A DNA stretch of 64,000 bases from assembly GCA_951406725.2 (NCBI GenBank), contig OX597834.1, forward strand, positions 25,296,001 to 25,360,000. Reading direction: 5' to 3'. The DNA is from Octopus vulgaris. Its lineage: Eukaryota. The translations under genes were made by a program, and so were the position numbers. Within the stretch, counting starts at the first letter, position 1; each line of letters opens with the position of its first letter. Shown piece after piece: positions 2,776 through 26,769 of the stretch. The notes under the pieces are model-generated. The model searched no databases. It was not told where the DNA came from and saw nothing but the letters and a program-made list of their open reading frames with translations.

Positions 2776-2776
2776 A

Positions 2777-2866
<90 letters not shown>

Positions 2867-3042: not shown

Positions 3043-3091
<49 letters not shown>

Positions 3092-3255: not shown

Positions 3256-3299
<44 letters not shown>

Positions 3300-3606: not shown

Positions 3607-3637
<31 letters not shown>

Positions 3638-3885: not shown

Positions 3886-3886
3886 C

Positions 3887-4200
<314 letters not shown>

Positions 4201-4806
4201 TAATGTATTTCTATGCATTTTCTTATTTACTCTCTTCTCTCTCCCCCTCTTCTCACACCCACCCTCCTCCTTTTCTCTCTCCTTCTCTCCCCCTTTCATA
4301 CATGCGTGTATGTGTGTGTACGTGTATGTCTGCATGTGTGCACGTGCATGTACATTTGCATGTGCGCCACGTTCACGCATACATCGACTTTAAGCAGAAT
4401 CGTAAGCTATTATTTCTGTGTCGTATTGTATGAAATATGTCTGAATTTGCCTTTGTGAATGTGTGTGTTCGGGGAGTGTTTCTATGTACCTCTGTGTCTA
4501 CGTGTCTGTACATCTGCATGTGCGTGTCTGTGCGTGGTGCATGTGCGTGTGTGTGTGTGTGTCTATGTGTGAGTGTGCATGCGTCTATCTGTGTGTGCGC
4601 TTGAATGTATTTTAACAGTTTCATTTCTCTAATATTTCGGTAATTTTTCGGATATTTTTCTATTTATTCCTCTTTCGTCTTTTTAGATTGAACTTTCAAC
4701 TGTCAGGTTATTACAGAGAAACACTCACGTTCTCTCTCTCCCTTTCTCTCTCTGTCTCTCTCTCACTCACTCTCTCTCTCTTTCTCTCCCAGTAAACCTG
4801 TGAAAT

Positions 4807-4834
4807 ATCATTATCATCATTAGTATTATTATTA

Positions 4835-4919
<85 letters not shown>

Positions 4920-4933
4920 CATCATCGTCATCG

Positions 4934-4976
<43 letters not shown>

Positions 4977-5018
4977 TATTATTATCATTATTATCATTAT
5001 TATCATTATTATTATTAT

Positions 5019-5053
<35 letters not shown>

Positions 5054-5103
5054 TCGTTATTATTATTATTATTATCATCATCATCATCATTATTATTGTT
5101 ATT

Positions 5104-5177
<74 letters not shown>

Positions 5178-5209
5178 CATCATCATCATCATCATCATCA
5201 TTATTATTA

Positions 5210-5288
<79 letters not shown>

Positions 5289-5372
5289 CATCATCATCAT
5301 TATTATCATCATCATGGTTGTAACTATTATTACTATTACAGTTGTAATTATTATTATTATTATTATTATTAT
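4807..5372. repeat. Compound (ATT)n/(ATC)n/(AGT)n trinucleotide array
   Basis: Directly visible. It is the source of the poly-N/D/I/M ORFs. Confidence 0.95.
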
Positions 5373-5613
5373 TGCTGTTTTGCGGCTGTTGATATTTGTT
5401 TTCTGACACGGTGTGGTGTGGTGTGGTGTGGGTAGCGACGGATGCTTATTTAATAAACAGATTAGACATAAAGCTATTAAATCTAAGTGAGATGGGTTCG
5501 CTTTAGTAATGAATACGTTTACACCAAACTGGAAACAGAGGTAAAATATAGTCTGCCGTTGTCATTGAGCATAAGTGAGTGAGTGTGTGAGTGAGTGAGG
5601 ATGAAAGAGTATA

Positions 5614-5646
<33 letters not shown>

Positions 5647-5764
5647 CAGTGTGTATTTATTATTACGTGTGAGTGCTTGCTTTCAAATGATTCTGTTAAT
5701 TTTTTTATTTTGCGGTGATTCCATGGAATGGTAATATATTGAATACGTGTAATTACACGTGTGC

Positions 5765-5956
5765 GTGCTTGTGTGTGTGAGTGCTTCTCTGCCTATGTGC
5801 TTGTGTGTGTGAGTGCTTCTCTGTCTATGTGCTTGTGTGTGTGAGTGCTTCTCTGCCTATGTGCTTGTGTGTGTGAGTGCTTCTCTGTCTATGTGCTTGT
5901 GTGTGTGAGTGCTTCTCTGTCTATGTGCTTGTGTGTGTGAGTGCTTCTCTGTCTGT
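5765..5956. repeat. 32-bp minisatellite, 6 copies
   Basis: Unit GTGCTTGTGTGTGTGAGTGCTTCTCTG(C/T)CTAT starting at 5765, 5797, 5829, 5861, 5893 and 5925. Confidence 0.9.
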
Positions 5957-6082
5957 GTGCTTGCGTATCTGTGGCTGTGTGTGTGCGTACGTAGTTGTGT
6001 GTCGGTGTGTGTGTGTGTGGTGTGCTTTCGGTTGTATGTGCTTGCGTGTGAGTAAAATTCATCTGATTAAATACACAAAGTG

Positions 6083-6380
6083 AAGGCGCGTGACTTAGTG
6101 ATTAGGGTAATCGGCTCGCGATTGTAAAATCCAGAGTTCGATTCTCCGCAGCGCGCTGTGTCCTTGAGCAAGACACTTTATTTCTCGTTACTTCAGTCCG
6201 CTAAGCTCCAAAAGTCAGTTGTATCTGAAAATCAAAGGGGCGGCCCTTGTCACACTCTGTGTCACGCTGAATCTCCCTGGCAATTTCGTTAAGAGTAGTG
6301 TCTGTGGAATGCTCAGCCACTTGCACGTTATTTTCACGAGAAGGTTGATCCGTTAATCTGATCAAATGCAACTCTCGTGC
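6083..6380 (+). mobile_element. Diverged tRNA-derived SINE (family C-related body)
   Basis: tRNA-like head, then CCTTGAGCAAGACACTT, then the same GGCCCTTGTCACACTCTGTGTCACGCTGAAT...GCTCAGCCACTTGCACGTTA body as 2216-2552. Confidence 0.65.
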
Positions 6381-6491
6381 CAGGTTTTTCCTAAATACAC
6401 AAAGGTATGTACCTATCACATGATACTATGACAAGCTGTATATTTGATTATATGCTTACATAAAACCTCATTCAGATTTTATTTATTCCCA

Positions 6492-6770
6492 GGGCTTGAA
6501 TGCCAGACCTATAGAGCCTACAACATGCTGGGTATCACTGGAGCTTGTAAATAGAAGGTCATCAAGTTGGCTATAAAAGCAACAAAGGTTGCCTCCAGGT
6601 AGCTATGTGGATTAGTAGGTGTGACCCATCAAAGGGATAATACTACTTGGAGTAATGATCAAAGGGGGCCTTAATCGCCCCTCCCCCACCTGGATCACCC
6701 GGGTGATGGTCTCTGATTATTCAAAAACCCGAGACACCTAATAATCCTGGGAAACATCATTGATGATGTC
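6492..6770 (+). mobile_element. 3' end relic of a HERO-like (restriction-like endonuclease) non-LTR retrotransposon
   Basis: Translates GLECQTYRAYNMLGITGACK*KVIKLAIKATKVASR*L-(frameshift)-WISRCDP, matching the HERO C-terminus (RAYxxLGITG...AIKxAxxAAExASRWLWIxR). It is followed by a HERO-like 3' UTR ending ACATCATTGATGATGTCC. Confidence 0.65.
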
Positions 6771-7237
6771 CAGATGCAAGAAATAACTACACACACACAC
6801 ACGTCCACACACATGCATACATATGTACATATGTCAGCACACATACACACACACACATACACGTCCACACACATGCATACATATATACATATGTCAGCAC
6901 ACATACACACACACATAGGGGATACTGATAATACAGACACATACCCCACACACACACACAAACGCACATTTACTAAACATAGACACACAGGAATATACTC
7001 ATGCGCAAATAAAGACACATACAATAGAAATACAAAATGGCTGATTATTAATAAAGAAAGACATACAAAAAAAAGAAAGAGGAAAGCAAAGGACCACTGA
7101 TGAGGTCACAGAAGTGTGACGAAAGAACTCTGGCCGAAATACGATTAATATAAAATGGAGCTGAAGCAAGTGAACACCAAATACATAGTGTGCGTGTTTT
7201 TATTGGCTAAACTGGCAACATGACCATCCCCAAATGC

Positions 7238-7298
<61 letters not shown>

Positions 7299-7362
7299 TA
7301 TATTCATATATACATACATATATATGTAAAGAGAGTGCGTGACATGTGTTTGTGTGCGTGTA

Positions 7363-7425
<63 letters not shown>

Positions 7426-8431
7426 GCGTGTACTTATGCACTGTAAAATATATTTACATTGAGAGAAATTTGAAAACCTACAATACATCCTGTCATGCAA
7501 AACAACACAGATAATATGAGAGGTGCCAGGAAAGCGACACAATTATACGCCCTTTACATCTAAAACCCCTTACACTAAGATATCCATAAAACCAACACCG
7601 CAACAACTCCATTTTAGATATCACTTTCTCCTATAGACATCCACATTCAACAAGTAGAAAACTTCAGGTTCGATCTGTAAAAGTAGCAGCTAAATCACCT
7701 CGAATCACACCGTAACAGAAAAATAGAACCTTATGTTGGATAATTCATTCGCAAATGTATTCGAAATGACATGATGGCTCTGGCTGGAATCGTCTCTGTT
7801 CCTAGATCTGCTCTGACCGCGAACTAAACAACATCAACAACAATAACAATAACATAACAAACAACAATCGTTTGATCCCGTGAGCACGTGACCATATCAT
7901 CATTACAATCCCCTCCCTTCCCCCACAGCTCAGCATAAAACAAGCACATCTCGTTGAAGATCCCTTCCAGCGAGGGACTGACTTAGAGTTCACTGGCCTG
8001 ACTACCTCCTAACCAGTGGTGCGCAACACCACGGCAATACGCCGGCAAAAATGCCCAACAGAGATGCTGCAATGATTCACTAAAAGAGAAAAATCTTCAA
8101 AAAATTCTTCAAAAAATCTCACAAAATAAAGCCCAGCCCAAATCTACACAACTGGGACGACTAACTTGATCAAAGATTGACCCAACTTTACATAAATACA
8201 TTACATAAACATCACCACTGCCACCACCATCATCCGAACTGTCACGTCATCATCGTCATCATCGTCATAATCATCATCATCGTCATCATCGTCATCATCA
8301 TCATCATCGTCATCATCATCATTATCTTTATCAATATCATCATCGTAATCGTCATACCCAGCATCATTGTGATCAGTATCAGCATATCTTTGTGCTTTAC
8401 TATTTTCCTCCTTTGTTCCACATTTCAGTAG

Positions 8432-8469
<38 letters not shown>

Positions 8470-8959
8470 CTTCTTCTTCTTCTTCTTCTTCTTTTTCTTC
8501 TTCTTCTTCTTCTTCTTCTTCTTCTTCTTCACTTTCTTCACCTTCTTCACTTTCTTCACCTTCTTCTCTTTCTTCACATTCTTCTTCTTCTTCCTCCTCC
8601 TCCGCCTTCTCATTCGTCTCCTTTTTCTTTTTCTCTTCTTTCTCTTTTGACTCCTTTTTCTTCTTCTCCTCCTTCTCCTTCTTTTCCTTTTCCTCATCTT
8701 CCTCCTCCTCCTCCTTCTTCTTCTTCCCCTTCTTCTTTCCTTCCTTCCCCTCTTCCTTCTTCCTTTTGTTTCTCTTTCTTCTTCAACTCTTCCTTCTTAG
8801 TCTTCTTCTCTATCCCGTTATATTTCTCTATCTTTTCCATCTTTATGTTCTTCTACTTCAAATTACTCTCCTCGTTCTTTTCCTTCAAAGTACAATAATC
8901 AAATTTTACACCCTATAAATTAAGGGGTAATTACAATAAAATTAATGTCGGTAATTTAA

Positions 8960-9230
8960 TCACCCCGCCTAGAGGCGTCGTTGATCATCAGCCTCCATTC
9001 TCGTCTTTCACATTTAAGACTCACTAAGTTAATAGGTCAGTCTTTCAGTAGCCATTAGTTCGACCAACGGATATCCTTTTCTTGCCTTCCCACAATCCTC
9101 TTCCACAATTCTTTCTCCTTTCAGTCGTCCAATTGTTGCAAAATGTACAAAACTTCCTTTGTCTTTTCATTTGATGTCCAAATTACTGACCCTGTTGCGT
9201 CCTATTCTTTCTTATGTTAAGAGGTTTTCT
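8960..9230 (-). mobile_element. Highly decayed RTE-like LINE 3' end
   Basis: Minus-strand fragments FGHQMKR...ATIGRLKGER...CERREWRLMINDASRRG resemble the RTE ORF C-terminus (FGHxxR, GxxxGxR, DRxxWR). Confidence 0.4.
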
Positions 9231-9268
9231 GGTAGATTCTACTCGTCAAAGGATTCTAATTCTCTCTT

Positions 9269-9334
<66 letters not shown>

Positions 9335-9389
9335 ACAAACACACACATTCATGCACACGCACACATACACTCTCTCGCCTTCTCTTTCT

Positions 9390-9454
<65 letters not shown>

Positions 9455-9744
9455 CAGAATCCTTATTTCTTGCAATATAGGTGCTATTCAGCACCCTTAT
9501 TCAATTAGTGACTATAAGATTTTCTTTTATGGTTTTATATTGCGCATAGCTGCCTATATTGATTATATATATATATATGGCGGTGCCCCAGCATGGCCAC
9601 AGCTCATTAGCTGAAACTGGAAAAATCAAATATATATATACATATATATGTTATTTTTTTCCTTCTTTCTTCAAGTTTTCTTCCGTTTCTCGCCGAATGT
9701 TTTCCGTACACCTAGGGCATTATTCTTATTATTATTATTATTAT

Positions 9745-9812
<68 letters not shown>

Positions 9813-9841
9813 ATAGTAGTAGTAGTAGTAGTGGTAGTAGC

Positions 9842-9881
<40 letters not shown>

Positions 9882-9989
9882 TCTTTATTATTATTATTAT
9901 TATTATTATTATCATTATCAAGGATACAATCTATATAAGATTTTATGAAGTAGCTACCATGTAAAACCCTTTAGGTATAAATTAATAGA

Positions 9990-10032
<43 letters not shown>

Positions 10033-10131
10033 GCCTATATCTATGTGATAAATAAAGTAGTTTTAGAGTCATTTGACATATTCTAGTGGCTCTACCAGGT
10101 AATTGCCCTTATTATAATTACATATGCATAC

Positions 10132-10180
<49 letters not shown>

Positions 10181-10329
10181 CATTTTTTGCATAATGAAAT
10201 AAAACACCAAAGCTGTATAGGTATTAGAACATTTATAGATAGAAGGTCTTGCAGCTATTTCCAGGATATTTATTAATTATAGCCCTTCTATTCGCTGCCG
10301 TTTCCTAATTCATGCAGAATATATATATA

Positions 10330-10766
10330 CAAGGGTTGGACAAAATAATGGAAACACCTAGCATCATAGAAGCATAATTTTGAAATATCTATAAAACTGT
10401 CAAAAGCTTGTTTATTTTTATGTTTTTTTATTCATTATTAGTGTTGCTTAATATGCTTTGCTAAAACTGCTGTTTCTTTTCAGATATCATCAGTAAAAGA
10501 TAATTAAAATCCATTAAAATGAAAGATCTATTGGATTTTCAAAGAGGTTAAATTGTTGGTGCTCGTATGGCAGGCGCTAGCATAACGAAGACAGCCGAAG
10601 TAGTGGTTTTCTGATTGCAGCCCTCCCGAAATCTGGCTTTGTGCAGCTCCCGGCGACCAGTTTTTGTGGAAACTGTGTTCTCGAAGTGCTCTGCAGTAAT
10701 TTTGGGAGCTGTATTTTTGTGACCCTTTCTAACAATTCGCGTAAGAGTCCGACGGTCCCTATCTGA
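10330..10766 (+). mobile_element. Truncated, internally inverted Tc1-like transposon
   Basis: TA|CAAGGGTTGGACAAAATAATGGAAACACC left TIR. Plus-strand MKDLLDFQRG*IVGARMAGASITKTAE (10519-10600) abuts minus-strand SDRDRRTLTRIVRKGHKNTAPKITAE...VSTKTGRRELHK...GRAAIRKPLL (10766-10600). Confidence 0.85.
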
Positions 10767-11004
10767 ATCCAAAGTTGATACGTCATTAAACAAAAGGACA
10801 GCTTTATTATATGGAGATAAAATGACAGTCGTGAGTAGCCATCAGCACGATCGTTGTCCGACCTTGTCTCTGGTAGCCGAAGGAATTTAAGCTTATACAA
10901 AAAAGAGTAGAATACGTGGCATAGGTAATTTGCATAATTTAACCAAGAATGAAGAAAGAGAAATAATACAGAGTTGCCAGTCCCTTATATTTAAATAACA
11001 TAAA

Positions 11005-11423
11005 CGTGGCTGTGTGGTAAGTAGCTTGCTAACCAACCACATGGTTCCGGGTTCAGTCCCACTGCGTGGCACCTTGGGCAAGTGTCTTCTGCTATAGCCC
11101 CGGGCCGACCAATGCCTTGTGAGTGGATTTGGTAGACGGAAACTGAAAGAAGCCTGTCGTATATATGTATATATATGTATATGTATGTGTATGTGTTTGT
11201 GTGTCTGTGTTTGTACCCCTAGCATTGCTTGACAACCGATGCTGGTGTGTTTACGTCCCTGCCACTTAGCTCCCTGTCACTTAGCGGTTCGGCAAAAGAG
11301 ACCGATAGAATAAGTACTGGGCTTACAAAGAATAAGTCCCGGGGTCGAGTTGCTCGACTAAAGGCGGTGCTCCAGCATGGCCGCAGTCAAATGACTGAAA
11401 CATGTAAAAGAGTAAAAGAGTAA
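11005..11423 (+). mobile_element. tRNA-derived SINE (family A), near full length, with internal microsatellite and CR1-type tail
   Basis: GTGGCTGTGTGGTAAG...GGGTTCAGTCCC head, CCTTGGGCAAGTGTCTT core, tail GGCGGTGCTCCAGCATGGCCGCAG...(GTAAAAGA)n. More than 10 copies in the window. Confidence 0.85.
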
Positions 11424-11639
11424 ATATACAAGCATTTCAAATAGCTTACAGCATGAATTAGGACAGCTGTATTATTCGTTTAAGGAACCACATTTGTAAG
11501 TTTTTATTGTACCCTGCTTCCGGGTCATACAGCTGTGTGTAAGGATAGGTTCTGAGTCTGTCTTCTAAAACTCTATAACATCCCCACAACTGAAATAAAT
11601 GTCTTCTTCAATTAAATAAACAAAGAAAATATGGTTTCA

Positions 11640-11845
11640 AATTTTGGCACGAGGCCAGCAATTTCGGGAGAAGGGCTAAGTCGATTAAATTGACCGCAGT
11701 CATCGACTGGCACTCATTTTATCGACTCCTAAAGGATGAAAGGCAAAGCTGACTTCGGCGGAATTTGAACTCAGAACACGAAGACAGATGAAAAGCCGCT
11801 AAGCATTTGCTCGGCGTGCTAATGATTCTGCCAGCTCGCCGCCTC
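11640..11845 (-). mobile_element. SINE family B
   Basis: Matches the family B reverse complement. Confidence 0.7.
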
Positions 11846-12061
11846 ACTAAACAAAGGAAAAAAAGCAACAAAAAAATGTAGACAACAGGAATAAGACAAA
11901 TATTTGTGACCAAAACAACATTGTAAAATGTCACTAGGGACAACAACAACAACAACAACAACAACGGCCATACTAAACACACATTATCACCATAACACTA
12001 ACATGTACAAAATACTAAAGAAACAAGCCCCTCTATCAAACACAATTTCTAAAACCAGTCA

Positions 12062-12109
<48 letters not shown>

Positions 12110-12894
12110 ACACTCATTCACTCACTCACTCACTCGCATGCACGTACACACACACACAGAAGACTGAAACGCGATCTGTGAGATACACAATCTTCCATCT
12201 TGATCGTGACTTTGATATCGTCTTTCTATGCGATACCAAAAACATTATAGAGAAATCCCAAACTCAAGAGCCTCGGGGCTCGATGTAATCACAAAAATGC
12301 ACCATAAAAAATATCACCGACTTCCTGAAATAATTATTGAACACAAAAAATACAATAAACACTAACTATTCAATCGTACGGAATCACAAGAATCTGGAAA
12401 CTGCAACAAAATTATAAGAAAAACCCAATCGAAGTTGCATCGTATAAACTTAGGGCCTTTTTTTTCTGTTTTATGAGCTGCTACATATTCGTTTGAAATG
12501 CAAAAAAAGTCGACCAAAATCTCCCTCAAAATGTATCCTAGCATTTTTAGAAACACATTAGATACATCAGTCCTAGGTATATTATGCCTGAAAATTAGAA
12601 GAGATGGTCATGGCTAGAATACTTTCCATCCTTGATCTTTGCATGAGAATTGTTTGGCGGGTGGGATAAACAACAATAGACCTAGAAAGATGCCCGTAAA
12701 TATCACCAACCCATACATTGCCCGATACCAATCACAGTTATGAGTTCAGGTCACTATATTTACCCGCCAACCGAAAGACAATGAAGAAACCTCGATAAAA
12801 CAGCAGCCAAATCTTACTCAAAATCATACCCAACAGTTTTAGCAAAAGGCACATTGGATAATGTCAGTCCTGGGACTCCTGCACATAATATATA

Positions 12895-13220
12895 GCTTTA
12901 CTACCCACAAGGGACTAAATATAGAGGGGACAAACAAGGACAGACAAAGGGATTAAGTCGATTACATCGACCCCAGTGCGAAACTGGTACTTTATTTATC
13001 GACCCCGAAAGGATGAAAGGCAAAGTCGACTTCGGCGGAATTTGAACTCAGAACGTAGCAGCAGGCGAAATACCTATTTCTTTATTACCCACAAGGGGCT
13101 AAACACAGAGGGGACAAAAAGGACAGACATAGGTATTAAGTCGATTACATCGACCCCAGTGCGTAATACCGAAATACCGCTAAGCTTTTCGCTCGGTGTG
13201 CTAACGATTCTGCCAGCTCG
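12895..13220 (-). mobile_element. SINE family B with internally duplicated/dimeric structure
   Basis: Two tails (TACCCACAAGGG at ~12902 and ~13086) in tandem. Confidence 0.7.
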
Positions 13221-13592
13221 ACAGACTGAGTGGTCACAGCCAGAGTGTCTTTGAATATAAGTCTGCTCTAACATGGCTGCCCTATGGCTAAACCACGATT
13301 ACAACAAAAATTCACACTTAGGACCATCGTTCATCAATGTTCACCGTGTAAATACAGATATGATCAAGTTTTGCTTTTTTGGTTGTTTCTTGCTTTTTTA
13401 TGATCACCAGCAAACAGACAAGTCACTTTTTCCTCTTCACCGATGTTTGTCCAAGATGAAGAAAACGCTTTGGGCCAATACATCTTGGCACCAGGGTCGT
13501 TACAGATGCTACTAACAAAATGCAAATATCCAGAACAGATACTACCAGACAGACACTGCCCGACCCACTAAGAGGTTTCCTAAAGTTTCGGC

Positions 13593-14002
13593 GCGGGCAT
13601 GGCTGTGGCGTAAGAAGCTTGCTTCCCAACCATATGGTCCCGAGTTCAGTCCCACCGCGTGGCACCTTGGGCAAGTGTCTTATATTATTGCCTCGGCGAC
13701 CACTACCTTGTGGGTGTATTTGGTAGGCGGAAACTGAAAGAATCCCATCGTGTGTATATATGTATATATATATGTATATATCTATCTAAATATATATATA
13801 TATAATGATTCAAAGTCAGTGATCAACTCTTACGATACCGGTATGACTTTGAATCTATATAATTATTCATAATAATGATTTTTATACTTAATAATTCCAC
13901 CTCAAATCATCTAATTGTATGTATATATCTATGCTTTATTTTAAAAAAAGCCTTTACTTTTTATATCTAATGTGCATTTTCTTTGTTTTCATTTTACTTT
14001 GC

Positions 14003-14055
<53 letters not shown>

Positions 14056-14352
14056 TGGCATATAAAACCGATTTAAGAGGAAACATGGTAACCGCCAAGA
14101 TTATATATCCCTTTGAACTAATTTTTGGATGTGTGTGTGTCTGTGTCTGTGTTTGTGCCTCTCCATTGCTTGACAACCGGTGTTGGGTATAATTACGCCC
14201 CAGTAACTTAGCAGTTCGGCAAAAGATAACTATAGAATAAGTACCAGGCTTAACTAAAAGCAAGTACTGAAGTCAATTCATTCGACTAAAATAATATTCA
14301 AGGCGGTGCCCAAGCATGGCCGCAGTCTAATGGTTGAAGCAAGATAAAAGAT
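13593..14352 (+). mobile_element. SINE family A split by ~370 bp of AT-rich sequence in its central microsatellite
   Basis: 5' half at 13593-13752, 3' half at ~14130-14352. Confidence 0.65.
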
Positions 14353-15027
14353 AATTTCTGTCGACTTAGAACGGATTAAAGACAAAGTTAATCTTAGCAG
14401 GATTTAAACTTGGAGCAGAGGTAATCGAAACCAATGTCACGTGACATTTTACCCATTACTCTAAAGATAGAAAATGGCGAGTTGGTAAATTCACGGTCGT
14501 CATACTGCTCAAAAACAAGGATGTTTTCGACAATACCCAGAAAATCCCCGATATTGTATCATTCTAGGTACCAACGACATCAGCAAAACTTTTATTCCAT
14601 ATACTTACATATATTTAAAATCTAAATTCTAGAAATTCTTCGAAGAAACTAAAATATGACTCTGACGAACCAACTAGTTCTCAGAGTGCCAAACTTCTGT
14701 AGAATACAGTACAAAGTTTTAAAGAATTTATGATTCCCCGAACGCAGTTATTTCTTCAGCCTTTTCTATTCTTACCAACACATGTTCACACCTTGCCATC
14801 CATGCAGCGCCGTCACGTGCCTCTCACCGTTCCCTAAACACAGCACCACCATAACGACTTCTGCAACCCTCTATCAATCACCAAGAATGCTGGCTCCACC
14901 ACAACAGACTCTACTGTAGCACCTACCATAATCTATTGTTCCTCTTCTTGCAAGCAATAACACCAGACAATAAGAATTTCAACTAAATATCACACTCCAC
15001 AACACGCTTTGATGTGACACCTTACAA

Positions 15028-15087
<60 letters not shown>

Positions 15088-15457
15088 TCTCTCTCTCTCT
15101 TTCTTTCTTTTTCTCTATCTATCTCTCACATGGACCTTATCTTTCTTTCTCAAACACTCATGTCTCTATTTCTCTTTACTTTGCATTAACACCACAGATT
15201 ATCAACTACAGCCAACCATCACACACTCAACAGCATAACTATATCACACACACACACACACACACATACTCCACACACTTACACATGTATACACACACAG
15301 AATACACAAATAAACACACGCACAGATATTCAGATATATCTTTGAAAAAGAAACATACCGGAATACGCACACACACATAAACATATATACATACATATGC
15401 ATGCATACATAAATAGATATGCATACATGCATACAAATACATACATACATACATACA

Positions 15458-15678
15458 TATTTCTTTACTACCCACAAGGTGCTAAACACAGAGAGGACAA
15501 ACAAGGACAGACACACGGATTAAGTCGATTACATCGACCCCAGTGCGTAACTGGTACTTAATTTACCGACTCCGAAAGGATGAAAGGCAAAGTCGACCTC
15601 GGCGGAATTTGAACTCAGAACGTAACGGCAGACGAAATACGGCTACGCATTTCGCCCGGCGTGCTAACGTTTCTGCCA
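15458..15678 (-). mobile_element. SINE family B
   Basis: Near-consensus copy embedded in (ACAT)n. Confidence 0.8.
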
Positions 15679-16932
15679 CATACATACATACATACATACA
15701 TACATACATACATACATACATACATACATACATACATACATACATACATACATACATACAATCATGTGCGCATGCTTATATGTGTACACTATATCTGAAA
15801 TAGCCACAACTGGAATGTCTTTGACCATAGGTCTTCTCCATCAAGAACGATTTAGTGCTAAACAACGGTCATTACACCATTCTAAGAACAACATACACGA
15901 CTACCAGCACCACCATTTCCCTATGTCGAGCCGAACACAGAACCATATATAGACACAAGAATAGTTAACAACATTATGTAGAGCCGTTCTTTCCTCCTAT
16001 AAGCCACGGTCGACCACGCGTCTGTACAGGCTTGAGGAAAGATCTTTTTGAGATCTAACAATTGACCGCTTATGCCCTCTTCTTGGCACCAACGGGATTT
16101 GAATTCAGAACATAAAATGCTGAAAGAAATACCGCAATGCAGTTTTCCTGGCGTCGGCCATCTTTACATAAACACATAAAATACTGTATTTATGTACTGT
16201 GATCGCAAATTATAGATACAAAGATGGGGCAGTTTTCGTACTCCAACAGAATGCTGTTCGCTTGTGTCCGCAGATATACAGAACTAGGGTAAGCAATAAC
16301 AGAAAATACAGGCTACTCAGATTGTACCTCATACAATAAACTACCCTGTGACGATCTGACGAAAAAGTAACTGTCAGGGGAACGCATCTTCCACAATCAA
16401 ATTTGAAACCATTTCCTCGTGAAGTACTTTTAAAGCCTGGAGTCCAAACTTTTGATACATATTTAATATAAGTTATAAATCTATGAATTTGTAAAATTGA
16501 ATATTCTTTTTTTTTTTTACTTATAAACTGCAGGTTCTTATAAAATTGCAATTGGCCTCTGGTGCTAAATAAATTACTGAAGCCTTCGAGTAAAGCAGTA
16601 ATTTAATAAAACCGACATACCTATAACGAAATTGCTAAATTAAAGATTCGATATTTCCTCTCGGCACCTATTCCTCTACTCGCCGTCCATGTTCTTGCAA
16701 TTAGCCCCTGGTTCTAAAAGAGTTTTACCATTCCTGTCAGCACAATTGCTTGGTGTGCTCTCAATAACAGCTAAGTCTCTTGCTCTAACACTCAAAAGAG
16801 TACACTGGATTACGTAGTTTTACATACAAATTGTCTGAAATATGTGTGCGCATGCGTATATGTGTATAAATATATATATGATTTTGTGTGTGTGCGTGTG
16901 TGTGTATTCGTATATACATATAATATATATGC

Positions 16933-16964
<32 letters not shown>

Positions 16965-17360
16965 ATGTATATATGAATGTATGTATATAAATGTTTATAC
17001 ATTTATATACATATATGAGTATATGTGCGTGTGTGTGTGTGCGTGCGTGTGTGTATCTGTGTGTGTGCGTGTGTGTGTATGCGTGTGTGTATCTGCGTGT
17101 GTGTGTGCTTGTGTGTGTGAATGTATGCGCGGATGCAGCAAAGAGAATGTTTAAGAGATTCACTTCCTAATCACGAAATATCAATGTGAGATCGAGTTCG
17201 ATCTCGCATTGCGGCGTCTCAGTCACGTGTCAATTACCATAGTTTCATGCCGATCCAAAATTTTATCAGCGAAAATAGAGAATCGGAAACCGTGTGGAAG
17301 CCTGCTGGATGGATTATACCCGATTCTACCTGATTCTACATTCTGTAAATGAGGTGGGTG

Positions 17361-17479
<119 letters not shown>

Positions 17480-17599
17480 CGTTAGCGCGCACCTTTACGT
17501 GTGTCAAGAAGTTTTTAGCACATTCTTTCTTTTAAGAGTAGCAGTTATAACTGTTCTAGATTATTGTGATTTTAGCATATCATTATTAGACATCTAATA

Positions 17600-18025
17600 A
17601 AGCGGCGAGCTGACAGAATCGTTAGCACGTTAGACGAAATACTGAGAGGTATTCCGTCAGCCGTTACGTTCTGAGTTCAAATTCCGCCGAGGTCGACTTT
17701 GCCTTTCATCCTTTCAGGGTCGATAAATTAAGTACCAGTTTCGCACTGAGGTCGATGTAATCGACTTAATCCCTTTGTCTGTCCTTGTTTGTCCCCTCTA
17801 TGTTTAGCTCCTTGTGGGCAATAAAGAAATAAAAAACGTTAGCACGTTAGACGAAATGCTTAACAGTATTTCGCCCGCTGCTACGTTCTGAGTTCGAATT
17901 CCGTCGAGGTCGACTTTGCCTTTCATCCTTTCGGTGTCCATAAAGTACCAGTGAAAGACTGGGGCCGATCTAATCGACTATTCCCCACTCCCAAATTTCA
18001 GGCTCTATGCCTATAATAGAAAGCA
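17600..18025 (+). mobile_element. Tandem pair of SINE family B copies with different tails
   Basis: First copy 17600-17830 ends CCTTGTGGGCAATAAAGAAAT. Second copy 17836-18025 ends CCCAAATTTCAGGCTCTATGCCTATA. Confidence 0.75.
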
Positions 18026-18730
18026 TTATTATACATCTAAAAAGCTGACCTACCGACGTTTGTTATTCCAGATTGAAGGAGACAGCTGTAACAGGACCTC
18101 AAATACACCCTACTAAACACTACACAGCTGACGAGTTTGCAGAATGCAGTCGGGACGTGAAGAAGACTAGGAAGCCCGCTCTATAATAAAAGTTTGTGTT
18201 AAACTAGTCAAAAACGCCACAAAAACATATAAAATGATCAAAGTGGTTTGTGGATTGTGTGAGCCAAGTCTCTGTTTTTCACTGGCACTAGAACGCAGGC
18301 ATAGCAAATTTATCAGGAAGCTAATGGTGATCCCCTATTTTCTACAGCAAGTGCATCATCTAAATCTACTGGGTTCCCTTTGGTCAGACAATAAACAAAG
18401 AGTGCTTTATGGAGGTTTTGACGGAATCCGAAAGAGATTTGGTCCGAACAGCACAGAGCACCTGCAACAGGAAAATGCACCAAGCCCGCAATTCTATCCT
18501 GTACACGAAGATAAGCATCGAATCACCCTCCCCACATTCCAAACCTTGCTGTCTTGGCTTTTGTTTGCTTCCCAGGCTCAGTTTGAGAATCCTGCTTAAA
18601 GAAGATGAGAGTTTTGTACTTTCTCTTTTTACAAATAATAAATGTCTTCCGAAAACGTCTCGAAACTTCTTGAATGCACCAATATATGTGTGTGTTTGTG
18701 TGTGTATTTATATATATATATATATATATA

Positions 18731-18962
18731 TATTTCTTTACTACCCACAAGGGGCTAAACACAGAGAGGACAAACAAGGACAGACAAAGGGATTAAGTCG
18801 ATTACATCGACCCCAGTGCGCAACTGGTACTTAATTTATCGACCCCGAAAGGATGAAAGGCAAAGTCGACCTCGGCGGAATTTGAACTCAGAACGTAACG
18901 GCAGACGAAATACGGCCACGCATTTCGCCCGGCGTGCTAACGTTTCTGCCAGCTCGCCGCCT
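18731..18962 (-). mobile_element. SINE family B, full length
   Basis: Complete head-to-tail copy within (TA)n. Confidence 0.85.
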
Positions 18963-19901
18963 TATATATATATATATATATACAAGGTCGTGAACAGTCC
19001 GTGGAGGGCTATAACGTAATATGAAGACAACATCAATAATGAGAGAAAAGAACTTGATACTTCTTTATTTCATCTGTTGCATATGCACGATAATTAAATG
19101 ATGTCATACTATAAATGCATTTCTCGTCTGTTTGAGAAATTGCTTAGTCTCGATTATTTGTCCAGGAATCGCCCAGTCTCAAAAGGTCATGTTTCCCTTT
19201 GGGGTTTGCATCTAAGGATTGCTTCTATAGTGTGACTACATGCATTAACGAAAGCATGTCTAATTGATGAAAGAAGGGAATATAAAGTTCAACCCCCCCA
19301 CGTTTTCTCTCTCATCATGTGTATATATGTGAGCTTGTGCATATACGTGCCTGCGCTGCGCGTGTTCGTGTGCTTTCTCGAGACTAGTCCAATGACCCAT
19401 TAATTTGGAAATCTGAAATTCCCCTAACTTGCTTTCGTTCGCAGAGACCTGAATTAACTGAATGTGAGACAGAAAGAAAAAGACACACACACCATCGGGA
19501 ATAGACTGGACACACGATTAGCCGAATCCACTCACAGGCTTTGAGCCCAGGTCACCAGAAAAATGGCTCGTTCATACCTTCTCTATCATTAAGTTGAATC
19601 ACAGACCATCTACAAGCCTTCATTACAGAGGATACCAAAGAAGAGATTCAAGGACATCGTGAAGAAATTTCCGTGACTGTCACATGGCCCCGTTGCCGGT
19701 GACCTACACTGGTTTCCCATTGCAAAGCCTAGCGACACTCAGTTGTCGATAAAACACAGAGAAGGGCGGTCAGAGATCCCAGAATAGAATTCTCCTTGCA
19801 GTAAGTATTTTTTTTGTCATCAGCGAGCCTGCAGTAGACGTGAAACGCCATATTCCAGAATATTCGTTGTTTGCGAAACCGAGCCATGATAGATACACAC
19901 A

Positions 19902-20019
<118 letters not shown>

Positions 20020-20150
20020 TGCACACACATAAACGCACACACTCGTACACACACACGAGCGTGTATAGATATACTTGAATGTGATAGAAATATAAATATA
20101 TATATATATATATGTACATACATACATACATACATACATACATACATACA

Positions 20151-20186
<36 letters not shown>

Positions 20187-20227
20187 TGTATGTATAAATA
20201 TATGTATATATATATATACATATACTG

Positions 20228-20273
<46 letters not shown>

Positions 20274-20299
20274 ACACGCTCACCTGTACGTGTGTCAAG

Positions 20300-20530
20300 T
20301 ATTCTTATTTTTATGTTCCTAAAATTTTTGTTACGTCTTGCAAGACTATTGAAAAGGTTGCAAGACGCAACGACAATTTTAGGAAAATAAGAATAAGAAA
20401 TAAGTGGAAATTTTACCGGTGAGTGTGTTAAATTATAAGACTCAAGAAGAAAATGACTCTCCCCAGACACAACAGAATATGCTTCAGCACACGAACTCAT
20501 ATAAAGAATCTTGCAAACCAAATCCAAAAA
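20300..20530 (-). repeat. Dispersed repeat with terminal inversion (same family as 29130-29275 and 29630-29920)
   Basis: Reverse complement of GGATTTGGTTTGCAAGATTC...GTGTCTGGGGAGAGTCATT...CTTGCAACCTTTTCAATAG. Confidence 0.7.
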
Positions 20531-20549
20531 CGAAATATATATATATATA

Positions 20550-20750
20550 ACGGGAAGCTTTATGAAAATAAACAAAAGACGAAGGCAGGTGGAGTACAAA
20601 CAAACAATTGTATTAGTATGGCGCTCAGGAATATAAATAAAACAAGTCGTTTATGTTTCGAGCCTACGCTCTTCGACAAAAAGATACACAGAAAAGAAAT
20701 ACGGAGAGAAACAAGGAGAGAAAAAAAAATGCGTGCAGAAGCTAGCGATT
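20550..20750 (-). mobile_element. Dispersed repeat with degenerate minimal hammerhead motif (same family as 30395-30592)
   Basis: Minus strand TCTTTTTGTCGAAGAGCGTAGGCTCGAAACATAAAC. Flanks match 30395-30592. Confidence 0.65.
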
Positions 20751-21055
20751 CAACATTTACACACATGTATGTATGTATGTATGTATGTATGTATGTATGT
20801 ATGTATGTATGTATGTATGTATGTATGTATGTATGTATATAAAGTTTATAACATGGTAGGCACAGACATAACTTTAGGCTCAACATTTCTGGGTCAAACC
20901 AGTACTTAAACGCATCCCGTTTTTACGTTTTGTTTTTTAACCACGAAACTTTACGCCCTTGAGTTATTCTCGAAATGTGTGTGTGTGTGTGTGTCTGTAC
21001 ATATACATATGCATGTGTGCATACACATATCTGCACACACACACACACACACACA

Positions 21056-21220
21056 TACGATGAGATTCTTTCAGCTTTCGTCTACCAAATCCACTCACAA
21101 GGATTTGGTCGACCCGAGGATATAGTAGAAGACACTTGGCCAAGGTGCCACGCAGTAGGACTGAACGCGGAACCATGTAGTTGGTCGGCAAGCTACTTAC
21201 CATACAGCCCCTCCTGCGCT
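21056..21220 (-). mobile_element. SINE family A, 5' half
   Basis: Matches the family A head. Confidence 0.7.
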
Positions 21221-21390
21221 TATATATATATATATGTATGTGTGTATGCATGTATGTATGTATGTATGTATGTATGTAAGTATGCATGTATGTATGTATG
21301 TGTGTATAAGTATATGTACGTATATATGTATGCATGTATGTATGTATCTATGTATGTATAAGTATATGTATGTATATATGTATATGTATT

Positions 21391-21438
<48 letters not shown>

Positions 21439-21845
21439 CTTTGAGTGTGTGTGTATACACGCAAACACACACATATACATACACACACACACACACAAAC
21501 AAACAAACAAACAAACAATGTGCATAGGAGGGTATAGTATCACTTTCTATATATTCGAGTCACCCCCAACCCGATGAGGGAATCTGAGTAGAAGGGAAAC
21601 TGTACGGAAACCTGTCTGATGGACTTGTACTCGTCATTTAACGAAGTACAACTTTGTAATATAGTCTTAGGTTGATTAGGTCTGAGAATAATGTCGAAGG
21701 ATCATGTGGTCTACGGAATATTCAGCCGCAAGAGAACATAACTGAATGAATCTGGTTTTGTTTATTGTTGATGGAACGCCGGAAGACTCGTGACCGCAAA
21801 TTCTCGCCAAGATCCAGTCATGCAGGTTCGCATGAATGAGTGCGT

Positions 21846-21914
<69 letters not shown>

Positions 21915-21995
21915 TGTATGTGTGTGTGTGTGTGTGTTAGTGTATGTGTGTGTGCATGCATTATAAATGTATATGTGTATATATGTATGTATATA

Positions 21996-22065
<70 letters not shown>

Positions 22066-22074
22066 TATTCTTTT

Positions 22075-22510
22075 ATTCTTATATTTTCTACTTGTTTCAG
22101 TCATTTGACTGCGGCCATGCTGGAGCACCGCCTTTAGTCGAACAAATCGACTGTAGGACCTTGTAACCCTAGTACTTATTCTATCGGCCTCCTTTGCCGA
22201 ACCTCTAAATTACGGGGGCGCAAACACACCAACATCGGTTGTCAAGAGATGGTGGGGGGACAAACACAGACACACATATAGATACATATATATATATATA
22301 TATACATATATATATTGTGTGCGTGTGCGTGTATGTACGTGTGTGTGTGCGGCGGATTTCTTTCATTTTGCTTGTACCAAATCCACTCAGTAGGCTTTGG
22401 TCGGCCCGAGGTTATAGTAGAAGACACTTGTCCAGGGTGCCTCACGGGGGGACTGAACTCGCAACTATGTGGTTGGGAGCAAGCTTCTAACCTCACAGAC
22501 ACACCTGTGC
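22075..22510 (-). mobile_element. SINE family A
   Basis: Head-to-tail copy with internal microsatellite. Confidence 0.75.
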
Positions 22511-23094
22511 GTTATTGCTATATATAGTTCAAATTTACAGAAAACAGAGGACGAAAACAGATGAAGGAACATCAGGCAGGTGTATTAGTTTGACGCTCGG
22601 GAAGAATGGAAAACTCCTTCACGTATGTGTATATATATATATATTTATATATATACAGCATATATGCATATATGTATGTAGGATATTATATACATGTGTG
22701 TGTGTGTGTGTGCATATATATGTATACATGTATATATATCAAAGAGGTGTCTTATAAAACTATTCCACATACAATAACACCCATACCAACCTAATACACC
22801 ACCATCACATATATAACTTATGTATGTGTGTGTGTGTGTTTGTGTGTGTACATATATGTACATATATGTACATATATATATATATATATCGCTTGACAAC
22901 CGGTACTGGTGTGTTTACGTCACCGTAACTTAGCGGTTTTGTAAAAGACAACAATAGAATAAGTACCTCACTTTAAAAAAATAAGTACTATATTGTCCCT
23001 ACATGGCTGCAAGTCTAATCGCTGAAGCAAGTGGAAGAGACAGACAGACAGACAGACACACAGACACACAGACCGTTAGATAGATAGATAGATA

Positions 23095-23385
23095 TGTTTC
23101 TTTATTAGCCACACAGGGCTGCACACAGACAGGACAAATTACAAGGTAGAGCTTTTCTTTTGGTTTTCGAAAGAGGACAAAAAAGGGGGGGATTAAAAAA
23201 AGGGGGAGGGGTGAATTGATCAATAGGGATCGTTATCACAGAAATGTCAATATGAAGTGTAAAGGGGAGGACAGGTGAGGTTTACCCGTGGAAAGAAAAG
23301 CCTACGGAAAAGACCACGGTAACCTCGGTCAATGAAGTCACATGTTATATTTCTTTTTTTTTTTTTGCAAATAAGCAACTCTCTG
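23095..23385 (-). mobile_element. Probable LINE 3' UTR fragment whose tail resembles the SINE family B tail
   Basis: Minus strand ends TTTGTCCTGTCTGTGTGCAGCCCTGTGTGGCTAATAAAGAAAC. Flanked by (GATA)n on both sides. Confidence 0.4.
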
Positions 23386-23393
23386 TATTAATG

Positions 23394-23490
<97 letters not shown>

Positions 23491-23832
23491 GTTGTGTGGA
23501 GTGTGTCAGGGAATCCTACTGAATATATCGTTGTCTTCGTTCCAGTGCTCTGTTCTCTAAGTTCAAAAGCCGCCGTCTTATATCTGCCTTTTATCCTTTC
23601 GTGGGGCACAAATACAATAATCCCAGTTCTGTAATCCAAGATTTCTGTTCTCTTTCTCTCTCTTTCCCAGTTTGTCTTTGGAACAAATCTTCTCTATTCA
23701 TATCTTGACAGGGATGGATAAACTCGAGCATTAAAAATGACCATCACACGCCAAATATAACGGTGGTACATCTACGGCACTCCTCCATCAAGAACTAAGA
23801 CCCCCACGCACACACACATAGATTCCTAAATG

Positions 23833-23865
<33 letters not shown>

Positions 23866-24118
23866 GTGTGTGTGTGCGCGCACCTGTGTGTTGTGCGAGT
23901 ATGTACGTTTGCATGATGCATGTATGTATGTGAGTATATATGTATGTATGTGCGTGTCTATATATATGTGTGTGTGTGTATGTGTGCGCGTGTGCGCGTG
24001 TGTGTGCGCGTGTGTGTGTGTGTGTGTTTGTGTATGTGTGTGTGTGTGCGTTGCCTGTGTTGTGCGAGTATGCACGTTTGCATGATGCATGTATGTATGT
24101 ATGTGAGTATATATGCAT

Positions 24119-24175
<57 letters not shown>

Positions 24176-24584
24176 ATATATATATGTGTGTGTGTGTGTG
24201 CATAGGCGGGTGCTTGTGTACTGAAAAGTTCTTAGCTTTAACAGAGTCACAAAAGGGCTTAGAAAAACTGCAACACTGCTGCAATAAATGTGTGAATATG
24301 TTGAATAAAATCATAATTAACTGACCCTCTTGTATTTTCTTTTACCCAAAGCAAGGGCTCTTCAGTATGTATGTATGTATGGATGGATGGATGGATAGAT
24401 GGATGGATAGATGGATAGATGGATGGATAGATGGATGTATGTATGTATGTATGTATGTATGTATTTATGTATGTATGTATTTATGTATGTATGTATGTAT
24501 GTATGTGTATATACATTTACGTCCGTGTGCGTTTATCTATATTTACCAAAACAAATACTCTACAAGGTGCATGTATTTACAATC

Positions 24585-24688
<104 letters not shown>

Positions 24689-24796
24689 CGATCGATCGAT
24701 CGATCGATGGACACATATACACACACATAGACACACAGTTTAAATAATAACAAATACAAAATGGTATATAATAAATTTGTTACCTGGGACATTGAA

Positions 24797-24851
<55 letters not shown>

Positions 24852-25157
24852 TAGATAGACAGATAGATAGACATACATGCATGTATATTTTTTTATTTAT
24901 ACAGATACAAACATACATACATATTTACGTATTACGGGACATTTATGTAAATACCAGATGCAAATCCATACTGTTATCCTATGTATACTCGTAGAAAACA
25001 TACACCAAAATATGTAAGTATAAACATATACGCCTATTCTACATACGTGCACGCATATATATATTATGTTTACGTATACGGTACGTATATCTATGTAGTA
25101 AATTCAATCGATCGATCGATCAAGTGATAGAATGATAGCTAGATGAGTGTGTGTGTG

Positions 25158-25215
<58 letters not shown>

Positions 25216-25507
25216 TACGTGTGTATATATCTACACGTGAGTGTAGGTATGTATGTATGCATATGTATATATGCGTGTGTGTGTATGTATATTTACACGT
25301 AACTGTAGGCTTGTATATGTGCATATTTGTGCACATAAGTATATATGAATATATATATATATATATGTGTGTGTGTGCATGTGTGTGAGTGTGTGTGTAT
25401 GCGTGTGTGTATGTATACACAAACACATATATATATATATATACATATATACACACACACACACACACACAATATATATATATACACACACACACACACA
25501 AAAATAT

Positions 25508-25566
<59 letters not shown>

Positions 25567-25742
25567 ACACACATACACACTTATGTGCATAAATATGCAC
25601 ATATACATGCCTACAGTTACGTGTAAATATACATACACACACACGCATATATACATATATACACGTACACGTAGAATTGCACGTACGTACACACACTTTA
25701 TGTATGCACCGTACATTCATGTCTCTACGTGTGTACACTCAC

Positions 25743-25836
<94 letters not shown>

Positions 25837-25865
25837 GGATGGATCGATCGATGGATAGATAGGTG

Positions 25866-25942
<77 letters not shown>

Positions 25943-25971
25943 AAAGATAGATGGATAGATAGGTGGATAGG

Positions 25972-26040
<69 letters not shown>

Positions 26041-26152
26041 GATGGATGGATGGATGGATGGATGGATCGATCGATCGATCAATCGATCGATGGACACATA
26101 TACACAGTTTAAATAATAACAAATACAAAATGGTATATAATAAATGTGTTAC

Positions 26153-26597
26153 CTGGGACATTGGCTCTCGGCCAAATTAAACTAAGAGGTACAAACACTC
26201 CATGATCTAGACCTCGACTGTGAATATTGGTACAACTTATTCCTTTCGCCTTAAACAGCTGCAACACCCGGGCCGCCACGGCCGGAGCGCCAGAAACTTG
26301 CCACTTGACGTTGTACGTACTGTCCGGGAAACCGTAGTAATCGTAATAAAGCGAGTGTGACTTGTCTTCCATCACCGTAGCAACCTGCTCCGACCAGTGG
26401 GCACTGACCACTAACACCGCCTTCGGCCGGTTCCTCAGGTAGGTCCGAGTCAGCTCACGCAGAAACTGGGCGGCATCCGAATGTTTGTCCATTCCACCCG
26501 TGCTCGGGTATTGTTTAGCATCCATGAAGAGCGACGGCCCTCCGCCGTGACTCAAAAATAGAACCGGCTGCCGTAGGTTCTTCGGAACGGCGCTCAT
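26153..26597 (-). CDS. First coding exon (148 codons + 1 nt) of a LigB-type / class III extradiol ring-cleavage dioxygenase (4,5-DOPA dioxygenase extradiol / YgiD-like)
   Basis: Translation MSAVPKNLRQPVLFLSHGGGP...PKAVLVVSAHW...LYYDYYGFPDSTY...GAPAVAARV...RGLDHGVFVPLSLIWPRANVP carries the family motifs SHGxG/P (His17), SAHW (His67), YD(F/Y)xGFP and RGLDHG. ATG has A at -3 and an in-frame TGA 9 nt upstream. Homology stops at CCCAG|GTAACAC (GT at 26152-26151), a phase-1 donor. The exon is clearly GC-richer than its flanks. Confidence 0.92.
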
Positions 26598-26769
26598 ATT
26601 GTCTCAAATGGTTGTGTTGAAGCTTATTAAAGCGATGATGATTGTGGTTGTGTATATATATGCATATATATATGCATGTATGTATATATATATGTGTATA
26701 TATATATATGTATATATATGCGAGTGCGCGTGTGTGTATTTGTGTATTATAAAAAAGGTGATGTATATG

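What the first reader, a model, noticed from the sequence alone, without database searches (positions are those of the whole stretch)
26153..26597. Intron-bearing LigB/4,5-DOPA-dioxygenase-like gene in a probable cephalopod genome
Seen: an intact exon with SHGGGP, SAHW, YDYYGFP and RGLDHG motifs and a GT donor, embedded in host repeats, so bacterial contamination is unlikely. Known: this class III extradiol dioxygenase family (plant DODA, E. coli YgiD) opens catechol rings, e.g. L-DOPA to betalamic acid, and is best known from bacteria, fungi and plants. Inference: cephalopods are rich in L-DOPA/dopamine (ink, melanin, salivary glands), so this could be an uncharacterised catechol ring-cleavage or pigment pathway, possibly acquired horizontally in the lineage.
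Basis: partly seen in the sequence, partly recalled or inferred. Interest (0 to 1): 0.75.

Follow-up and report, generated by a model that had tools for sequence, protein, structure and literature searches.

The report
Mollusc-wide catechol ring-opening enzyme gene
This is the first exon of a real, spliced octopus gene for an enzyme of the family that makes beetroot pigment; snails, clams and cuttlefish have it too, so it is an old mollusc gene that likely breaks down catechol compounds, not a recent bacterial gift tied to ink.

Summary
Observation confirmed. Window 26597-26153 (-) is exon 1 of a two-exon DODA/YgiD-type (Pfam LigB) gene. Exon 2 lies 101,572 nt away, outside the window; contigs from 4 runs of 4 studies join the exons at the GT-AG sites. 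The spliced 287-aa protein keeps all five metal and catalytic histidines. A paralog on contig C2 has the same intron. The gene already carries an automatic annotation, and orthologs occur in 17 mollusc genera (cephalopods, gastropods, bivalves) in a tree that broadly follows the classes. An unidentified sister group shares the same phase-1 intron. A cephalopod-plus-bacteria clade is rejected (AU p=0.011), so lineage-specific transfer fails. The deeper origin is open: protist-like sequences are nearest, a bacterial donor to the stem is not excluded, and a freshwater sponge copy nests separately among chrysophyte algae. The plant betalain motif is absent, and the post-His188 loop and C-terminal strand are mollusc-specific. 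Best reading: an Fe(II) extradiol dioxygenase for catechol catabolism or detoxification; substrate untested. Ten literature searches found no study of the mollusc gene; tardigrade DODA1 is the animal precedent. A real, uncharacterised member of a known family; moderate interest.

The parts
26153..26597 (-). Coding exon 1 (Met1-Pro148 plus the first base of Val149); carries His17, His67 (predicted Fe ligands) and His132 (predicted catalytic)
   Evidence: covered by contigs of 4 runs
26598..26641 (-). 5' untranslated stretch continuous with exon 1 (at least 44 nt; beyond it lies repeat that the tool skips)
   Evidence: contigs X1, X2, X6, X12 run to 26641; in-frame stop upstream of the ATG
26147..26152 (-). 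5' splice donor GTAACA, phase 1
   Evidence: loose ends of all four runs break at 26153
1..26152 (-). Window part of the single 101,572-nt intron. It runs past window base 1 to exon 2 at G000:C21:25220580-25220162 (419 coding nt including the stop; His188, His248), outside the window
24692..24794 (-). Local duplicate of the last 11 exon bases, the donor and the first intron bases (84% over 103 columns); not used in the spliced contigs

Best explanation
This is exon 1 of a spliced two-exon octopus gene for a 287-residue DODA/YgiD-type protein, shared across cephalopods, snails and clams, that likely acts as an iron-dependent extradiol dioxygenase opening catechol rings for breakdown or detoxification rather than for pigment. 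Mechanism, by homology with beet DOD: His17, His67 and His248 would bind Fe(II); the catechol would chelate the iron, helped by His132 and His188; O2 would be inserted next to the diol, giving a ring-opened semialdehyde that cyclises or is degraded. Shown: gene structure, splicing, the five histidines, the fold of the paralog, the mollusc-wide clade and the shared intron. Inferred: catalytic activity (about 0.75), cytosolic location (no hydrophobic leader by eye), and a catabolic role on dietary or endogenous catechols, DOPA and dopamine derivatives included. History: present with its intron before the three sampled mollusc classes split, inherited vertically since, duplicated in cephalopods; it most likely entered animals from, or was retained from, a eukaryotic stock.
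For: Spliced ORF of 287 aa, GT-AG intron; junction in 4 of 4 runs laid. Histidines map to BvDOD His15/53/119/175/229 (PMC11926856 passages; alignments) and are invariant in 20 of 20 mollusc rows. The model of paralog P0003 (pLDDT 85.6) matches 8IN2 at Z 34.5, rmsd 1.7 A over 258 residues, above LigB 1BOU at Z 21.4. Paralogs show dN 0.31 with dS saturated. All 20 animal-named rows among the 120 listed are molluscs, 17 genera. Careful tree: molluscs 99/95, molluscs plus sister group 99/99, gastropods 97/90, cephalopods 100/100. The same phase-1 intron is in the C2 paralog and in sister-group loci L103 and L119. In the 512-row tree the animal clade lies in a 208-row group (support 85) holding 0 of 77 named GTDB bacterial rows and several EukProt/MMETSP rows. 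The family's pocket is variable and non-pigment roles are documented: Arabidopsis LigB makes alpha-pyrones (PMC4493658 passages; PMC11926856 section 22).
Against: No assay, tissue or metabolite data; the substrate class is inferred. Below the NCBIfam DODA equivalog cut-off (121.6 bits for the paralog against 233), so function cannot be transferred by rule. The Asn after His188, kept in most other groups, is lost in 17 of 20 molluscs, so activity may have shifted. Deep placement is weak: a tree with molluscs, sister group and bacteria on one side beat the quick tree by 18.7 log units (p 0.76) and its log-likelihood is only about 7 below the careful tree's. Land-plant, fungal, oomycete, tardigrade and YgiD sequences were not in the trees, most protist-like rows are unnamed, and the root was assumed. 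Solemya does not group with the other bivalves.
Confidence: 0.55

Rival explanations
1. The enzyme is a dedicated L-DOPA dioxygenase that makes betalamic acid, muscaflavin or betaxanthins in molluscs as pigments or antioxidants, as reported for tardigrade DODA1.
For: Nearest solved structures are plant DODAs. Bacterial, fungal and tardigrade enzymes make betalains outside plants (PMC13263728, PMC13389832, PMC12186922 passages). Molluscs are rich in DOPA chemistry (recalled).
Against: The plant motif H-P-S/A-N/D-x-T-P (PMC12186922) reads H-T-F-E-K-M-G here. The beet loop SHGTP reads SHGGGP, and T17A nearly abolishes beet activity. Searches listed no report of betalains or DODA in molluscs. The gene is kept in unpigmented and inkless lineages alike.
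Confidence: 0.12
2. The mollusc clade has shifted to a different substrate or reaction (for example an aminophenol, a hydroxykynurenine/ommochrome-related or halogenated aromatic), using the same 3-His iron site with a rebuilt pocket.
For: A C-terminal [E/D]-H pair is in 20 of 20 mollusc rows and 1 of 41 other eukaryote-side rows; the H-N motif is lost in 17 of 20; aminophenol dioxygenases share the fold.
Against: Both catechol-binding histidines are invariant. Aminophenol dioxygenases are far more distant (Z 22-23, 13-14% identity). Whether the C-terminal His faces the pocket was not tested.
Confidence: 0.25
3. The gene was acquired from bacteria within the cephalopod lineage and serves ink or salivary chemistry.
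For: Two cephalopod paralogs on a long branch (0.48); bacterial homologs at 36-46% identity.
Against: Gastropod and bivalve orthologs are closer than any bacterium; the intron is shared outside molluscs' named clade; AU p=0.011 against cephalopods plus bacteria.
Confidence: 0.02
4. Origin only: the gene is an ancestral animal gene kept by sponges and some lophotrochozoans and lost elsewhere, with no transfer at all.
For: A sponge (Ephydatia) has a relative; nearest neighbours look eukaryotic; animal monophyly was not rejected against the quick tree (p 0.088); unnamed rows may hide other animals.
Against: The sponge copies nest among chrysophytes (100/99), share their 2-residue insertion and are called as full-length frames on long contigs, which suggests no intron. 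Animal monophyly is rejected against the better tree (p 0.003; the group was named after the tree was seen). No other animal phylum was named.
Confidence: 0.35

Closest known systems
Plant 4,5-DOPA extradiol dioxygenase (Beta vulgaris 8IN2, Mirabilis 9J2L)
   Same: Fold (Z 34.5, rmsd 1.7 A over 258 aa for the paralog model), 3-His metal site and two catalytic His.
   Different: About 35% identity; no H-P-S/A-N/D-x-T-P motif; Gly where beet has Thr17; mollusc-specific C-terminal [E/D]H; no known betalains in the host.
E. coli YgiD (2PW6; NCBIfam PRK10628)
   Same: 3-His site, single-chain class III fold (Z 27.5).
   Different: Below the equivalog cut-off; lacks H-N-L-R; belongs to a separate GGGP-loop subgroup; intron-bearing.
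Tardigrade DODA1 (Hypsibius henanensis)
   Same: An animal gene annotated as DOPA dioxygenase; the published precedent (review passages in PMC13389832 and PMC13263728; the primary paper was not seen).
   Different: Reported as horizontally transferred and betalain-forming. Its sequence was not held, so homology and orthology were not tested; no tardigrade was named in my searches.
Arabidopsis / class I plant LigB
   Same: Same family; a non-pigment ring-cleavage role (alpha-pyrones; PMC4493658 passage).
   Different: Class I H-N-L-R motif absent here.
Sphingomonas LigAB (1BOU)
   Same: Superfamily fold (Z 21.4), Pfam PF02900.
   Different: 2-His-1-Glu site and 13% identity, against 3-His here.

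Membership tests
Class III extradiol dioxygenase (PF02900 LigB) | Pfam score above gathering cut-off | tested here: met
   70.6 against 26.3 bits for exon 1 alone; exon 2 28.6 bits
Class III extradiol dioxygenase (PF02900 LigB) | LigB-type fold over the whole chain | tested here: met
   Tested on paralog P0003 (62% identical): Z 34.5, 258 aligned
DODA/YgiD-like subgroup | Three His metal ligands plus two catalytic His | tested here: met
   His17, 67, 248 and 132, 188
DODA/YgiD-like subgroup | Fe(II)-dependent catechol ring cleavage | not testable with these tools
   needs an assay
NCBIfam 4,5-DOPA-extradiol-dioxygenase equivalog (NF007914) | Score of at least 233 bits | tested here: not met
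   121.6 (paralog), 125.5 (cuttlefish cluster), 56.6 and 41 for the two exons
Plant betalain-forming DODA (class II) | H-P-S/A-N/D-x-T-P after the catalytic His | tested here: not met
   H-T-F-E-K-M-G
Plant betalain-forming DODA (class II) | Pocket residues Thr17, Asp254, Tyr260 | tested here: inconclusive
   Thr17 position reads Gly by motif; alignments to 8IN2 stop before residue 254, so the other two were not mapped
Plant class I LigB | H-N-L-R motif | tested here: not met
Betalain pathway | Betalamic acid or betalains made in vivo | not testable with these tools
   needs metabolite data
Cephalopod-specific transfer from bacteria | Nested among bacteria and absent from sister lineages | tested here: not met
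Older transfer into the mollusc/lophotrochozoan stem | Supported nesting in a donor group | tested here: inconclusive
   open fork among protist-like rows; bacterial side not rejected

The most novel reading that the evidence does not exclude
Molluscs and a sister lineage picked up a catechol dioxygenase from a microbe before the mollusc classes split, rebuilt its pocket, and use it to open DOPA or dopamine into seco-DOPA products (betalamic acid, muscaflavin or related compounds): an unrecognised pigment or antioxidant pathway across the second-largest animal phylum, with a freshwater sponge gaining the same family separately from golden algae.
Probability: 0.1. Interest if true: 0.8.

Novelty: new member of a known kind. 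Interest (0 to 1): 0.4.

Why it matters
Catechol extradiol cleavage of this type is not part of textbook animal metabolism (recalled), and the one characterised animal DODA that I found cited is in tardigrades. A conserved, spliced, mollusc-wide clade with its own pocket signature is a cheap enzyme to test. It could reveal how molluscs dispose of DOPA, dopamine or dietary phenolics, or a hidden pigment route. The analysis also indicates that the public octopus model lacks the third metal ligand, and flags a probable alga-to-sponge transfer. The gene itself is already auto-annotated in many genomes, which limits the surprise.

Tried and rejected
Motif scan and tblastn for exon 2 inside the window: nothing. 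Contamination and pseudogene: rejected by splicing, repeat context and the intact ORF. Retrocopy as the source of the joined contigs: one copy of exon 1 by DNA search and only four exon hits by protein search; both give lower bounds. The run search listed no holder on record as RNA (14 guessed RNA among 20 holders), so tissue and level are unknown. Exon 2 has no read support of its own; its 3' end rests on contig length. The first translation of exon 2 was mis-framed and redone; the L103 start was off by one, so that row is missing from that tree, and was fixed. The quick tree was sub-optimal, so a careful tree was built; both AU results for animal monophyly are given. The sister group could not be named: 0 named members in the clusters of P0015, P0167, P0239 and P0396; two Atlas searches gave only oomycete-rich and bacterial clusters. 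Ten paper searches listed no study of the mollusc or sponge gene; 15 and 66 were too loose to count, the library lacks most subscription papers, and no supplements were opened. Earlier-findings look-ups were empty. Two genome stretches fetched were not examined.

Full report
OBSERVATION. The minus strand from 26597 to 26153 is an open frame of 445 nt, 148 codons plus one base, set among microsatellites. It scores 70.6 bits on Pfam LigB against a cut-off of 26.3, and its only 4 PDB sequence matches are three plant DODAs and E. coli YgiD. The GT donor follows at 26152.

GENE STRUCTURE. No second exon lies in the window. A genome search with a cuttlefish-cluster homolog gave four exon-sized matches: this exon, a C-terminal exon at C21:25220580-25220162, and a second two-exon gene on C2. 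Splicing at the GT-AG sites gives one stop-free frame of 287 residues across a 101,572-nt phase-1 intron; the C2 gene has the same intron site and phase, 2,697 nt long. Contigs from 4 runs of 4 studies cover exon 1 and break at 26153 with a loose end equal to the start of exon 2. The tool only guesses that these runs are RNA, but a join across 101.6 kb at splice sites, with no retrocopy found, is best read as spliced mRNA. The C2 product equals P0003, which its source names Octopus vulgaris DOPA dioxygenase extradiol-like. A public model of the C21 gene, P0168, is identical for residues 1-211 and then diverges, losing His248. Two contigs carry 464 letters past the junction, which fits 419 coding bases plus 45 bases ending in a microsatellite, whereas the public model leaves the exon after about 188. 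This is a length argument only.

ENZYME ANATOMY. His17, 67, 132, 188 and 248 correspond to beet DOD His15, 53, 119, 175 and 229: three iron ligands and two catalytic residues (PMC11926856, passages and section 22). They are invariant in 20 of 20 mollusc rows. The paralog's model (pLDDT 85.6, pTM 0.89) matches 8IN2 at Z 34.5, 9J2L at 33.0, YgiD at 27.5 and LigAB at 21.4 (Foldseek ranks the same three entries on top). The window's own protein was not folded. The paralogs are 62% identical, with dN 0.31 and saturated dS, which fits purifying selection. Specificity markers point away from plant betalain enzymes: after His188 the sequence is T-F-E-K-M-G, neither the betalain motif (PMC12186922 passage) nor class I H-N-L-R (PMC4493658 passages); the beet SHGTP loop reads SHGGGP; the NCBIfam equivalog cut-off is missed. 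Molluscs have their own signature: Asn after His188 lost in 17 of 20, and a C-terminal [E/D]H in 20 of 20 against 1 of 41 other eukaryote-side rows. Non-plant betalain formers need not carry the plant motif, so this lowers but does not exclude DOPA cleavage.

DISTRIBUTION. Of the 120 rows listed by the profile search, 20 carry an animal name and all are molluscs; with the cuttlefish name this makes 17 genera: 2 cephalopod, 5 gastropod, 10 bivalve. No other animal was named in the lists, but most rows are unnamed, and one of them turned out to cluster with a sponge, so absence elsewhere is not shown. A sister group of unnamed sequences exists. Two of its genomic loci have a GT-AG phase-1 intron at the same codon (413 and 631 nt), a third shows the donor, and 9 short predicted proteins end just after that site. 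Its taxon is unidentified; an annelid or other lophotrochozoan, or an unsampled mollusc class, is my inference from tree position.

PHYLOGENY. FastTree on 512 of 541 rows (those covering at least 200 profile positions) put the animal clade in a 208-row group with 0 of 77 named GTDB bacterial rows and several EukProt/MMETSP rows. A 78-row IQ-TREE C20 analysis, rows chosen by me from that tree, gave molluscs 99/95, sister group 100/99, both 99/99, cephalopods 100/100, gastropods 97/90, a bivalve-side group of 9 rows 100/97 without Solemya, and the 14 bacteria apart at 100/91. The window gene pairs with the cuttlefish cluster (99/92; 73% identity), not with its paralog. Cephalopods plus bacteria is rejected (p 0.011). 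Molluscs plus sister group plus bacteria was not rejected against the quick tree and beat it; it was not re-tested against the careful tree. Ephydatia and three close unnamed rows nest among chrysophytes (100/99) and the named sponge row shares their 2-residue insertion; all animals as one clade gives p 0.003 against the careful tree and 0.088 against the poorer quick tree. Plants, fungi, oomycetes, tardigrades and YgiD were not in the trees, and the root was assumed. So the gene predates the split of the three sampled classes; whether it came by transfer from a protist, from a bacterium, or by patchy retention is open.

HOW IT LIKELY WORKS. An Fe(II) extradiol dioxygenase, probably cytosolic, that chelates a catechol and cleaves the ring beside the diol. 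The beet study notes that the pocket varies across the family, and Arabidopsis LigB serves a non-pigment route. Retention in filter feeders, grazers and predators alike fits general catechol catabolism or detoxification better than ink. I give this 0.55, a shifted substrate 0.25 and a betalain-type role 0.12.

PRIOR KNOWLEDGE. The gene is auto-annotated in many mollusc genomes. Ten searches of the held library listed no study of it (listings only, two of them too loose). Tardigrade DODA1 is the animal precedent, seen only through passages of PMC13389832 and PMC13263728. Supplements of genome and transfer surveys, which I did not open, may list the gene.

VERDICT. Real gene, correctly recognised; the cephalopod-transfer and ink readings fall. 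New member of a known kind, uncharacterised and easy to test. Interest 0.4.

Noticed in passing
P0467 / P0058 / P0410 / P0053 (cluster named Ephydatia muelleri): A freshwater sponge relative nests among chrysophyte algae (100/99) and shares their 2-residue insertion; full-length frames on long contigs suggest no intron. Probable separate alga-to-sponge transfer; contamination not excluded, though the named record lies on a 5.4-Mb contig.
   Followed up: partly
window 32018-44366 and 44467-56955: A 12.4-kb near-identical tandem duplicate (95.6-98.6%) on either side of a 100-N gap at 44367-44466; likely two haplotypes assembled in a row.
   Followed up: partly
window 24692-24794: Duplicate of the exon end, donor and first intron bases 1.4 kb into the intron.
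   Followed up: partly
P0168 (public model of this gene): Diverges after residue 211 and lacks the third metal ligand; likely a wrong 3' splice call.
   Followed up: partly
G000:C2:6876858-6880412 (L003, L004): Second paralog with a 2.7-kb intron against 101.6 kb here; the named O. bimaculoides and O. sinensis proteins match this copy.
   Followed up: yes
P0002 cluster; P0006; P0269: N-terminal extensions of 35-50 residues (Arg-rich in the cuttlefish cluster, hydrophobic in Pomacea) that could be targeting signals or over-long gene calls; absent from the window gene.
   Followed up: no
L101, L103, L119; P0015, P0164, P0166, P0167, P0170, P0239: Unidentified intron-bearing sister group to molluscs, seen only in unnamed transcript and metagenome assemblies.
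   Followed up: partly
window 30857-31650 (+) and 49904-50173 / 37387-37656 (-): Open frames that look by eye like decayed retrotransposon reverse-transcriptase remnants (recalled resemblance, not scanned).
   Followed up: no
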